Shown here piece after piece: positions 4,392 to 4,963 of a stretch of DNA of 60,922 nt (its first letter is position 1; every line of letters starts with the position of its first letter). Source of the stretch: a virus (lineage: Duplodnaviria; Caudoviricetes); the IMG/VR virus record IMGVR_UViG_3300025141_015004, positions 1 to 60,922 of that record; one strand, written 5' to 3'. A program made the position numbers and the translations under genes. The notes below the pieces were generated by a model, which had not been told where the DNA came from, did not search any database, and saw only the letters and a list, made by a program, of their open reading frames with translations.

Positions 4392-4559
4392 ATGGATCGA
4401 AACCTCATCATCGGCTATCTTGTTCTCCTAGGATTGGGAATTTCGGTGATCGCTGTTGAATCTGTGTTTTATAAGGCTGTGTTGTTTATTCCTCTTTGTT
4501 TTTGTATTCTCGCATGGATTGGTTATTATATTGATTATAAGGAACGTCAAGATAAATGA
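4392..4559 (+). CDS. 55 aa two-TM membrane protein (not in ORF track)
   Basis: MDRNLIIGYLVLLGLGISVIAVESVFYKAVLFIPLCFCILAWIGYYIDYKERQDK; fills the gap; stop overlaps next ATG (ATGA). Confidence 0.7.
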   Translation: MDRNLIIGYLVLLGLGISVIAVESVFYKAVLFIPLCFCILAWIGYYIDYKERQDK

Positions 4560-4816
4560 AAAATTTCGCGTTGGCTGTTTGTGTCTTTCTTTTTTCTTTT
4601 TGTGTTCTCGCCAAGCCCAAGATCACCAAGGGCAAGGATAAGATCATCTACAAGAAAAATACCATCATCAATTTCGACGGAAGCATTGTTGATGGGGAGC
4701 TTATTAAACCCAAGGGCGGTTTTATTCAATCCCGTGGCCGTGCAAAATTCAATAGTCTTATAAAATATCGCAAAGATTTTTTGGATAATATGAAAAAACG
4801 CGCGCGATCTCTTTGA
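4556..4816 (+). CDS. cglF: Adventurous gliding motility protein CglF/GltF-like
   Basis: Signal peptide then IYKKNTIINFDGSIVDGELIKPKG...KFNSLIKYRKDF, matching the recalled myxobacterial CglF pattern KKTxIDF..xxEGELxKPxG..FxSLIKxRxxF; about 86 aa size. Confidence 0.75.
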   Translation: MKNFALAVCVFLFSFCVLAKPKITKGKDKIIYKKNTIINFDGSIVDGELIKPKGGFIQSRGRAKFNSLIKYRKDFLDNMKKRARSL

Positions 4817-4822
4817 TCAAGA

Positions 4823-4963
4823 TCAATCTTCCTTCTTTTCTTCTTCTCTTCTTTTTCTTCTCTCGTCAAAAACACCGTGAGCATCCAACACAAGATGAAA
4901 TAACATTCCTATGGATATAATTGTTATGAATAAAACAACCCACTCGTCAAATTTCAAATTCAT
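4823..4963 (-). CDS. 46 aa single-TM protein
   Basis: ATG at 4963 with AGGGG RBS; hydrophobic helix plus charged tail; sigma70 promoter upstream. Confidence 0.65.
   Translation of the reverse strand: MNLKFDEWVVLFITIISIGMLFHLVLDAHGVFDERRKRREEEKKED

What the first reader, a model, noticed from the sequence alone, without database searches (positions are those of the whole stretch)
4392..4963. Phage-encoded CglF/GltF gliding-motility homologue among small membrane genes
Seen: an 86 aa exported protein with IYKKNTIINFDGSIVDGELIKPKG..FNSLIKYRKDF, translationally coupled to an unannotated 55 aa two-TM gene. Established: CglF/GltF belongs to the Agl-Glt gliding machinery of Myxococcota (related genes occur in Bdellovibrionota), and Cgl proteins can pass between cells by TraAB outer-membrane exchange. 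Inference: the host is a gliding predatory deltaproteobacterium, and the phage may modulate motility, block a Glt-based receptor, or act on neighbouring cells. I know of no described phage gliding gene.
Basis: partly seen in the sequence, partly recalled or inferred. Interest (0 to 1): 0.85.

Follow-up and report, generated by a model that had tools for sequence, protein, structure and literature searches.

The report
Phage-borne orphan GltF-like periplasmic linker
A large marine phage carries a small exported protein that is a true but divergent relative of GltF, the periplasmic linker of the myxobacterial gliding machine, and similar lone copies occur in dozens of uncultured phages, which suggests that phages tamper with this kind of cell-envelope conveyor.

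Summary
Window 4392-4963 has three small genes: a 55-aa two-TM gene, an 86-aa signal-peptide gene overlapping it by ATGA, and a convergent 46-aa one-TM gene behind a perfect sigma-70-like promoter.

The 86-aa protein is a real homologue of CglF/GltF: NF033764 E 6.8e-15; hhalign 99.3% against a true-GltF alignment; 35% identity to the M. xanthus protein. It is not an orthologue: 54.9 bits against a cut-off of 90. It falls in a separate, strongly basic subfamily. Its cellular members sit in barrel-GltC-D-E-F-G-like clusters.

The window is a fragment of a large myovirus and has no other Glt-like gene. The gene is under purifying selection (dN/dS about 0.13). It keeps its position in diverged relatives. 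Related lone copies occur on 62 other IMG/VR contigs, including five 187-316 kb records, and in none of 50,697 GenBank phage records.

Both segments that a 2025 AlphaFold model uses to bridge GltG and GltC are conserved. My best reading is an exported mimic of the bridging subunit that acts on a host Glt/Nfs-type machine.

The host is unknown, and the "gliding predatory deltaproteobacterium" inference is unproven. I found no paper describing such a phage gene.

The parts
4392..4559 (+). Gene for a 55-aa protein with two hydrophobic (TM) stretches. Its stop overlaps the start of the next gene (ATGA at 4556-4559).
   Evidence: ORF list. 17 clusters at 71-100% identity, all 55-57 aa. 24 invariant columns. 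Median dN/dS 0.24. No Pfam, NCBIfam or PHROG family at a meaningful E-value. TM assignment is by eye and by a crude hydropathy script.
4556..4816 (+). Gene for the 86-aa GltF/CglF-like exported protein. The mature part is about 67 aa, with net charge about +12 and pI about 10.4.
   Evidence: NF033764 at E 6.8e-15, 54.9 bits, cut-off 90. hhalign 99.3% against true-GltF alignment A5. BLASTP 35% identity over 77 aa to M. xanthus AM003 GltF, E 4e-16. dN/dS 0.13. Charge and pI.
4556..4612 (+). Sec-type signal peptide, residues 1-19, with probable cleavage after ...CVLA / KPK.
   Evidence: Read from the sequence: positive N-end, 15-residue hydrophobic core, small residues at -3/-1. AlphaFold2 helix at 2-16. 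No signal-peptide predictor was available. No conserved lipobox Cys in relatives (alignment).
4652..4705 (+). Conserved extended segment, residues 33-50 (KKNTIINFDGSIVDGELI). It aligns with the M. xanthus GltF strand that a published model inserts into the GltG TonB-C-terminal-like domain.
   Evidence: Alignment. Positions 94-111 of the 147-aa M. xanthus ORF located. Passages of PMC11761067. T36, F40 and G47 are nearly invariant in 116 family members.
4769..4813 (+). C-terminal helix, residues 72-86 (RKDFLDNMKKRARSL). It aligns with the GltF helix that the published model places in a GltC crevice.
   Evidence: AlphaFold2 helix at 75-85, block pLDDT 89-92. Alignment. Positions 133-147 located. 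PMC11761067 passages. R72 and F75 are nearly invariant.
4823..4963 (-). Convergent gene for a 46-aa single-TM protein with a charged tail.
   Evidence: ORF. tblastn finds positional homologues in L003, L004 and L020 (41-44%), in L008, L009 and L012 (36-40%), and weakly in L011 (E 0.064).
5004..5032 (-). Sigma-70-type promoter-like site, TTGACA-17-TATAAT with TG, 12 of 12 matches, upstream of the 46-aa gene.
   Evidence: Consensus scan. The region gave 17 promoter-like sites against 11.9 +/- 3.3 in shuffles, so this is a consensus match only. The flanking DNA is conserved in L003, L004 and L020.

Best explanation
The 86-aa gene encodes an orphan, phage-borne member of the GltF/NfsF family. In Myxococcota this family is the small periplasmic linker of Agl-Glt/Nfs-type envelope-spanning conveyors.

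Proposed mechanism:
- During infection the protein is exported by Sec and its signal peptide is cut off.
- The roughly 7.6-kDa, very basic, largely unfolded mature chain then uses its two conserved elements: an extended strand (residues 33-50) and a C-terminal helix (72-86).
- With these it docks onto the host's GltG-type TonB-C-terminal-like domain and GltC-type TPR protein.
- The phage brings only this subunit. Its likely effect is therefore to compete with or replace the host linker, uncoupling, locking or re-purposing the host machine. Possible consequences are changed motility or surface-polymer transport, or exclusion of other phages.

The upstream 55-aa two-TM gene is an accessory partner confined to the window's close relatives.

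Shown: homology, orphan status, phage context, purifying selection, conservation of both motif segments, and recurrence in many viral contigs. Inferred: export, the binding partners, the direction of the effect, and the host.
For: Homology:
- NF033764 at E 6.8e-15.
- The reciprocal profile search finds 493 representatives at E <= 1e-3. All 10 of 10 tested hit NF033764.
- hhalign 99.3%, E 2.9e-20, over 84 columns.

Cellular context:
- 12 of 12 cellular loci examined have GltE-like and/or GltG-like neighbours. These were the best-scoring loci, not a random sample.
- The closest named cellular member, L022, lies in a barrel/GltC/GltD/GltE/F/GltG-like cluster.

Orphan status:
- None of 4 L022 Glt-like proteins hits any of the 292 window ORFs.
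- No GltG-tail domain in the window.
- 5 of 5 large IMG/VR records have one family member, and 0 of 5 have a GltG match.

Phage context.

Selection and conservation:
- dN/dS 0.13.
- The gene keeps the same genomic position in diverged relatives, L223 at 60% identity and L011 at 60%.

Structure:
- AlphaFold2 gives a signal-peptide helix, an extended middle and a confident C-terminal helix, with pTM 0.22.
- This matches the description of M. xanthus GltF in PMC11761067 (passages). In that model, strand 94-111 binds GltG and helix 133-147 binds GltC.
- These map to the most conserved family columns.
Against: - The score is below NCBI's equivalog cut-off (54.9 against 90).
- The protein lies outside the true-GltF clade.
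- No host is known. The phage is about 36% G+C, and the nearest cellular relatives come from about 52% G+C genomes at 42-54% identity.
- No close copy turned up in the species-genome scan.
- The nearest cultured phages infect Microcystis and Flavobacterium, hosts not known (from recall) to have Glt machines. Those phages lack the gene.
- The binding model for GltF is itself only an AlphaFold prediction with no biochemistry. The paper says so in the passage I read.
- My residue mapping assumes that the 147-aa ORF of strain AM003 equals the paper's numbering.
- The TonB-C-terminal-like target fold is generic: NF033768 rings weakly in E. coli and B. thetaiotaomicron controls. The target could therefore be something other than a Glt machine.
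- No expression data are available.
Confidence: 0.5

Rival explanations
1. This is a generic small periplasmic peptide used by the phage for its own envelope business, such as superinfection exclusion, control of DNA entry or timing of lysis. It would act together with the small membrane proteins next to it, on a TonB/Tol-type or other host target unrelated to gliding machines. On this reading the resemblance to GltF reflects shared ancestry of a short docking peptide, not a shared target.
For: - The gene sits among small membrane genes: 55 aa with two TM, 46 aa with one TM.
- In 7 of 33 other viral loci a small TM ORF also overlaps the start of the GltF-like gene (crude hydropathy test).
- The family occurs in at least three separate viral clades and on 62 contigs. 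That abundance is hard to square with rare gliding hosts.
- The nearest cultured phages infect non-Glt hosts.
- The TonB-C-terminal-like fold is widespread (control hits).
- T4 Imm and Sp are small membrane or periplasmic exclusion proteins (recalled, not checked here).
Against: - Every cellular family member examined lies in a Glt/Nfs-type cluster (12 of 12).
- Both GltF docking segments are conserved.
- The 55-aa partner is absent from the more distant relatives L011, L016, L017, L018 and L223, so it is not needed.
- No lysis gene is adjacent. The endolysin domain is about 35 kb away.
Confidence: 0.3
2. The gene is a host-derived auxiliary gene that supplies a working linker. It would keep the host's gliding or surface-polymer conveyor running during infection, rather than blocking it.
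For: - The whole motif set of the family is retained.
- Selection is purifying.
- The same phage carries an 18-kb sugar-nucleotide/glycan cluster. Agl-Glt/Nfs machines are described as handling surface sugar polymers (PMC3858216 passages).
Against: - It is deeply diverged from any cellular copy found (at most 54% identity).
- It forms its own viral clade with a viral sister, L223, so it is not a recent capture.
- A single subunit of a machine with many parts is an odd thing to top up.
Confidence: 0.12
3. This is not a real feature: either a chance or compositional match of a lysine-rich peptide, or a cellular contig mislabelled as viral.
For: - The protein is short and lysine-rich.
- The HMM score is under the curated cut-off.
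- Pfam and PHROGs give nothing.
- The record is a fragment, CheckV about 31% complete.
Against: - The match spans profile positions 4-84 of 88. hhalign gives 99.3%, and the reciprocal search recovers the family.
- NF033764 rings in 0 of 14 control genomes at E <= 0.001.
- The window has a baseplate wedge, PhoH, an exonuclease and an endolysin-domain protein, and no Glt neighbours.
- Four IMG/VR records rated 94-100% complete carry the family.
Confidence: 0.03

Closest known systems
GltF / CglF of Myxococcus xanthus (MXAN_4868; NCBIfam NF033764)
   Same: - About 86-89 aa, with a signal peptide and no TM (PMC3169522 Table 1, passage).
- The same two conserved segments, Y-K-x-T-x-I-x-F...G-E/D-L-x-K-P and R-x-D-F...L.
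- Predicted to be mostly unfolded, with a C-terminal helix.
   Different: - 35% identity; 54.9 bits against a cut-off of 90, where the M. xanthus protein scores 144.6 bits.
- A separate clade. The AU test of a joint clade gives p 0.0355, with the group named after seeing a tree.
- Strongly basic: last-62-residue net charge +10 against a median of +0.5 for the true-GltF clade.
- Not flanked by gltE and gltG; encoded by a phage.
GltF-like subunits of paralogous single-cluster Glt/Nfs-type machines (for example L022 in a MAG labelled Deltaproteobacteria/Myxococcota; NfsF of M. xanthus by analogy)
   Same: - The same basic subfamily: a 17-row clade with 100/99 support.
- 42-54% identity to L022 and its three kin, L147, L148 and L150.
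- Comparable NF033764 scores, 51-52 bits.
   Different: - The cellular copies lie between GltE-like and GltG-like genes, in a barrel-C-D-E-F-G order. The phage copy stands alone.
- The genomes differ in G+C (0.51-0.53 against about 0.36-0.40).
- Whether L022's cluster is the Nfs equivalent was not tested.
GltF-like genes on other uncultured viral contigs (IMG/VR)
   Same: - Lone 76-101-aa signal-peptide proteins matching NF033764 at 45-54 bits.
- Many of the contigs share other genes with the window: the 297-aa and 930-aa proteins, PhoH, glycosyltransferases.
   Different: - Most belong to other clades that are neutral or acidic.
- They are 28-52% identical to the window protein.
- Only L223 is a close sister, at 60%.
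Small phage membrane/periplasmic exclusion proteins (T4 Imm, Sp) and TonB-box-bearing ligands such as colicins. Recalled, not checked here.
   Same: This is a works-like comparison only. They are small exported phage or toxin peptides that act in the envelope, and docking by strand addition to a TonB-type C-terminal domain is how the GltF strand is modelled.
   Different: No sequence relationship was found or sought. No exclusion phenotype is known for this gene.

Membership tests
CglF/GltF equivalog (NCBIfam NF033764) | HMM score at or above the curated cut-off of 90 bits | tested here: not met
   54.9 bits, E 6.8e-15. M. xanthus AM003 GltF scores 144.6 bits.
CglF/GltF equivalog (NCBIfam NF033764) | Falls inside the clade of proteins that pass the cut-off | tested here: not met
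   The true-GltF clade (99/96) excludes it. It sits in a separate 17-row clade (100/99). The AU test of a joint clade gives p 0.0355, with the group named post hoc, on only 89 columns.
CglF/GltF equivalog (NCBIfam NF033764) | Gene lies between gltE (TPR lipoprotein) and gltG (FHA/TonB-like) in a glt cluster | tested here: not met
   No GltC, D, E or G-like ORF among the 292 window ORFs. No GltG-tail domain. The neighbours are phage genes.
CglF/GltF equivalog (NCBIfam NF033764) | Needed for gliding, localises to focal adhesion clusters, mutant rescued by cell contact | not testable with these tools
   These are experimental properties (PMC3169522 and PMC4488436 passages).
GltF/NfsF-like superfamily (broad sense) | Significant full-length profile similarity to GltF | tested here: met
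   hhalign 99.3%, E 2.9e-20, 84 columns. NF033764 profile positions 4-84 of 88. The reciprocal profile search gives 493 representatives at E <= 1e-3.
GltF/NfsF-like superfamily (broad sense) | Small (about 80-110 aa) protein with an N-terminal signal peptide and no further TM | tested here: met
   86 aa. The signal peptide was read from the sequence, and AlphaFold2 gives a helix at 2-16. No dedicated predictor was run.
GltF/NfsF-like superfamily (broad sense) | Conserved strand segment and C-terminal helix, the modelled GltG and GltC contacts | tested here: met
   T36, F40, G47, P52, R72 and F75 are nearly invariant in 116 sequences. Mapping. The contacts themselves were not tested.
Two-component spanin / holin lysis cassette | Outer-membrane lipoprotein with a lipobox Cys, next to an endolysin | tested here: not met
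   The Cys in the signal peptide is not conserved and is replaced by Q in relatives. The endolysin domain lies at 40029-42281.

The most novel reading that the evidence does not exclude
Large uncultured phages, mostly marine, have repeatedly carried a lone copy of the intrinsically unfolded GltF linker as a periplasmic decoy. The decoy would dock by strand addition onto the TonB-like domain of the host's proton-driven Glt/Nfs-type conveyor and onto its outer-membrane TPR adaptor. That would cut or lock the link between motor and surface. This would be the first viral factor known to seize a bacterial gliding or surface-transport machine. A bolder corollary, which the unrooted tree does not exclude, is that GltF itself entered the myxobacterial machine from a phage. 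GltF is a late-recruited 'Group A' gene with no older cellular relatives.
Probability: 0.25. Interest if true: 0.8.

Novelty: new variant of a known kind. Interest (0 to 1): 0.62.

Why it matters
GltF is essential for myxobacterial gliding, but it has no assigned biochemical role. The only proposal is a 2025 AlphaFold model that makes it the bridge between the inner-membrane motor side (GltG) and the outer-membrane platform (GltC).

A phage that carries only this subunit is a natural experiment. The copy is kept under purifying selection and recurs in dozens of phage genomes. If the phage copy binds the same partners, it supports the bridge model. It would also give a ready-made inhibitor or probe of the machine, and it would add motility and surface-conveyor machines to the list of host systems that phages take over. 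It may also help assign hosts to a large group of uncultured 190-320 kb phages.

Tried and rejected
Family and structure searches
- Pfam and PHROGs gave nothing for the 86-aa protein. For the two small TM proteins they gave only chance-level hits.
- The PDB sequence search with the family profile found only one chance-level match, at E 0.66.
- I ran no fold search, because the AlphaFold2 model has no globular fold (pTM 0.22).
- Complex prediction for the 55-aa protein with the mature 86-aa protein returned 'no answer' (score 0.00). This is not evidence either way.

Searches for relatives
- Scans with the close alignment A1 found no relative in genome contigs (251 pattern matches, 0 confirmed) or in viral contigs (133 pattern matches, 0 confirmed).
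- GenBank phages gave no tblastn match for the window protein or for two other viral versions, and no megablast match for window 1-20000.
- The distant cultured relatives Mel-JY01 and immuto, and LR756508, lack the family (0 of 3).

Host
- The window has no tRNA.
- No psbA in 5 large related records.
- I could not reach Bdellovibrionota genomes.

Expression
- Sequencing runs: 21 DNA holders labelled marine, hydrothermal-vent or viral metagenome (3 with at least half of the words), and no RNA holder listed.

Other checks
- The Atlas gave only leads, with scores 0.87-0.88.
- The lysis-cassette (spanin/holin) idea was rejected: no conserved lipobox, and the endolysin is far away.
- An obligate two-gene module with the 55-aa gene is weakened. 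The gene is absent from L011, L016, L017, L018 and L223.
- Supplements of PMC11761067 (Table S1B, Fig. S2C) and of PMC3169522 were closed. They may hold the exact GltF contacts and distribution.
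Full report
WHAT IS THERE

Window 4392-4963 holds three small genes.
- 4392-4559 (+) encodes 55 aa with two hydrophobic stretches.
- 4556-4816 (+) encodes 86 aa. It has a positive N-end, a 15-residue hydrophobic core and a likely cleavage site ...CVLA/KPK. The mature part is lysine-rich.
- 4823-4963 (-) encodes 46 aa with one hydrophobic stretch and a charged tail.

The first two genes overlap as ATGA at 4556-4559. The third converges on them, with 6 nt between the stops. 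It lies behind a 12-of-12 match to TTGACA-17-TATAAT, with TG, at 5032-5004. That is a consensus match only: the region gave 17 promoter-like sites against 11.9 +/- 3.3 in shuffles.

THE GENES ARE REAL

- The 86-aa protein has 46 database clusters at 60-100% identity (46 of 47 candidates). The 55-aa protein has 17 at 71-100% identity. All are from metagenomes and unnamed.
- A metagenome scan returned 20 loci, L002-L021.
  - Twelve hold both genes, always with the same 4-nt start/stop overlap geometry.
  - Four lack a 55-aa homologue (L011, L016, L017, L018), although their GltF-like genes are 50-60% identical to the window's.
  - Four are cut too close to the gene to tell (L004, L012, L014, L020).
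- Median Nei-Gojobori dN/dS is 0.13 for the 86-aa gene (47 pairs) and 0.24 for the 55-aa gene (64 pairs).
- The 46-aa gene has positional homologues in seven loci, one of them weak.

THE CONTEXT IS A PHAGE

- The window is a whole IMG/VR record: linear, with a CheckV estimate of 31% complete.
- It encodes:
  - a PD-(D/E)XK exonuclease;
  - PhoH, a NUDIX hydrolase and glycosyltransferases;
  - a 750-aa protein with a C-terminal endolysin/amidase domain;
  - a gp6-like baseplate wedge protein.
- The nearest cultured phages, by the wedge protein, are Microcystis phage Mel-JY01 and Flavobacterium phage immuto, at about 30% identity.
- There is no tRNA.
- G+C is about 0.30-0.46, mostly 0.31-0.39.

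HOMOLOGY TO CglF/GltF

- NCBIfam NF033764 (gliding_CglF, equivalog) matches at E 6.8e-15, 54.9 bits, over profile positions 4-84 of 88. This is below the curated cut-off of 90.
- A profile of 24 close relatives (A1), searched against 1.84 billion representatives, found 493 proteins at E <= 1e-3 and 34 at E <= 1e-10. Nearly all are 70-135 aa, with a hydrophobic N-end and the same two motifs.
- Ten of ten representatives tested hit NF033764, at 30-68 bits. None reached 90.
- M. xanthus AM003 has four family members, at 144.6, 67.1, 33 and 32.6 bits. The first is GltF. It stands just upstream of an ORF that I take, by eye, to be the FHA protein GltG.
- The window protein is 35% identical to that GltF over 77 residues, E 4e-16.
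- A1 against an alignment of 15 true-GltF-clade proteins gives hhalign 99.3%, E 2.9e-20, over 84 columns.
- Homology is therefore secure. Membership of the equivalog is not met.

PLACE IN THE FAMILY

- A quick 172-row tree and a careful 59-row tree agree. The careful tree uses 89 columns, and few columns leave many forks unresolved.
  - The window clade has 97/94 support.
  - It lies within a 17-row clade with 100/99 support.
  - The true-GltF clade (99/96) is elsewhere.
- Holding the window clade and the true-GltF clade together costs 34 log-likelihood units, AU p 0.0355. I named the group after seeing the first tree, so this is weak.
- The 17-row subfamily is strongly basic: median net charge of the last 62 residues is +9 to +10, pI about 10.2. 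The true-GltF clade has +0.5 and pI 7.7.
- Its named cellular member, L022, comes from a MAG titled Deltaproteobacteria bacterium and placed by NCBI in Myxococcota. The gene order there is: OMP_myx_plus barrel, GltC-like, GltD-like, GltE-like, the family member, GltG-like. All score under the equivalog cut-offs. This is a paralogous Glt/Nfs-type machine in one cluster.
- That genome's GTDB phylum holds only 6 species genomes here. Four of them have 89-96-bit matches to A1, and those four copies (L022, L147, L148, L150) are 42-54% identical to the window protein.
- In a sample of 401 genomes from the phylum of M. xanthus, 353 have a match at E <= 1e-8. The best is 78.6 bits. The tally includes one unpublished genome, G205.
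- Of 12 cellular loci checked, 11 have a GltE-like neighbour, 11 have a GltG-like neighbour, and all 12 have at least one. These were the best-scoring loci, not a random sample.

THE PHAGE COPY IS AN ORPHAN

- None of the four L022 Glt-like proteins hits any of the 292 window ORFs of 40 aa or more.
- The GltG-tail domain NF033768 is absent from the window.
- The window covers only about a third of the genome. I therefore also checked five large related IMG/VR records (187-316 kb; CheckV 77-100%, four of them at 94% or more). All five have one NF033764 match at 45-54 bits, and none has a GltG match.

IT IS NOT A ONE-OFF

- Two IMG/VR scans with broader alignments found 33 and 57 contigs. Comparing contig names by hand, 28 are shared, which leaves 62 distinct contigs.
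- The ORFs are 76-101 aa with signal-peptide-like N-ends.
- They form at least three clades in the tree.
- Many of the contigs share other genes with the window: the 297-aa and 930-aa proteins, PhoH, glycosyltransferases and the exonuclease.
- The sister of the window clade, P0047, lies on a 59.9-kb IMG/VR contig (L223). That contig is syntenic with the window downstream. There the gene follows a 179-aa ORF instead of the 55-aa gene.
- So the GltF-like gene is the older, position-stable element, and the 55-aa partner is a later addition.
- In 7 of 33 other viral loci a different small TM ORF overlaps the start of the GltF-like gene (crude hydropathy test).
- GenBank phages (50,697 records) gave no match to three viral versions.

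WHAT THE FAMILY DOES

This section rests on passages read with the find mode, not on whole papers.
- PMC3169522:
  - GltF is MXAN_4868, 89 aa, with a signal peptide and no TM.
  - It is one of the 'Group A' genes, found only in Myxococcales and Bdellovibrionales.
  - A functional mCherry fusion sits at focal-adhesion clusters.
  - Without GltF, GltD clusters fail.
- PMC3858216:
  - nfsA-H are paralogues of gltA-H.
  - Agl-Glt/Nfs machines are described as versatile surface transporters that deal with sugar polymers.
- PMC11761067, an AlphaFold model without biochemical support, as the paper itself says:
  - GltF is largely disordered.
  - Its strand 94-111 inserts beside a strand of the GltG TonB-C-terminal-like domain.
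  - Its C-terminal helix 133-147 sits in a GltC crevice.
  - GltF thereby bridges GltC, GltD and GltG.
- The 147-aa reading of the AM003 ORF has SKTTNIDFEDDTIEGDLT at 94-111 and REDFEDKVMQSVGEL at 133-147. That this ORF equals the paper's numbering is my inference.
- These segments align with window residues 33-50 and 72-86. They hold the nearly invariant family columns T36, F40, G47, R72 and F75.
- AlphaFold2 on the window protein, with 116 aligned relatives, gives mean pLDDT 76.4 and pTM 0.22. It has helices at 2-16 and 75-85 and no other secondary structure. This is the same picture as that described for GltF.

MECHANISM

My best reading (0.5) is an exported decoy or substitute for the bridging subunit.
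- After Sec export, the unfolded basic chain docks by its strand and its helix onto a host GltG-type domain and a GltC-type protein.
- Being made alone and in excess, it changes the coupling between the motor and the outer-membrane platform.
- Whether that blocks, locks or sustains the machine is open.

The main rival (0.3) is that phages use this docking peptide on a different envelope target for exclusion or entry control, with small membrane partners. Three points favour it: the abundance of these phages, the non-Glt hosts of the nearest cultured relatives, and the generic nature of TonB-like domains. A helpful auxiliary gene (0.12) and an artefact (0.03) are less likely.

HOST

- All cellular relatives found are from Myxococcota-labelled genomes. 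My motif-based scan (209 relatives, the best 80 kept) was biased towards them.
- I could not search Bdellovibrionota.
- G+C and identity argue against any sampled lineage being the donor or the host.

NOVELTY

- The full-text searches found nothing on a phage-borne GltF/CglF or gliding gene: 'CglF/GltF', 'gliding motility' with auxiliary metabolic genes and viral contigs, 'adventurous gliding motility' with phage, and 'GltF' with Myxococcus.
- These searches cover open-access papers and bioRxiv only.
- I rate this a new variant of a known kind: a known protein family, seen as a lone, divergent, recurrent phage gene.

TOOLS NOT AVAILABLE

- Supplements were closed.

Noticed in passing
window 19822-38264 (+): This is an 18-kb run of about 20 co-directional genes for sugar-nucleotide and glycan synthesis, with lower G+C (0.30-0.37) than the rest of the window. 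The first two ORFs match glycosyltransferase PHROGs. Eight of ten further ORFs hit Pfam: three epimerase/dehydratases, GT2, GT11, a TylF O-methyltransferase, DUF5672 and a polysaccharide deacetylase. That is unusually large for a phage. It may be relevant, because Glt/Nfs machines handle surface sugar polymers.
   Followed up: partly
window 3292-4387 (+): Three tandem paralogous genes of 117-120 aa lie just upstream of the 55-aa gene. They are 28-31% identical pairwise, with E values from 2e-10 to 5e-6. The only family hit is a weak PHROG of unknown function on the third gene. The set is conserved in related loci.
   Followed up: partly
window 3008-3280 (+) and 5033-5317 (+); also L223 3660-3977 and the genes upstream of GltF-like genes in L128, L129, L131, L134, L142, L144: Small proteins flanking the module begin with a shared amphipathic N-terminal motif, roughly K-I-S-x-x-x-L-K-Q-I-I-x-E-E-L. 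The two window proteins share 11 of 16 residues. Similar N-ends appear on neighbours of GltF-like genes in other viral contigs. This may be a capsid-targeting or protease-processed leader, as in T4 internal proteins. That comparison is recalled, not tested.
   Followed up: partly
window 43324-49098 (+) and 52892-60922 (+, runs off the end): Two giant ORFs of 1924 aa and more than 2677 aa flank the baseplate wedge gene. They are presumably tail-fibre or host-recognition proteins. I did not analyse them.
   Followed up: no
window 40029-42281 (+): A 750-aa protein has its last roughly 180 residues matching endolysin/amidase PHROGs (E 1.3e-19). This looks like a virion-associated lysin rather than a free endolysin.
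   Followed up: no
window 1332-2993 (+): A 553-aa ORF lies in the highest-G+C part of the window (0.46). It has no Pfam, PHROG or PDB sequence match. It might be a divergent major structural protein.
   Followed up: partly
window 7225-7253 (-): A second near-perfect sigma-70-type site, TTGACA-17-TATACT with TG (11 of 12), lies at the annotated TTG start of the exonuclease ORF. This suggests that the real start is the internal ATG and that the minus-strand genes are early genes read by host polymerase.
   Followed up: no
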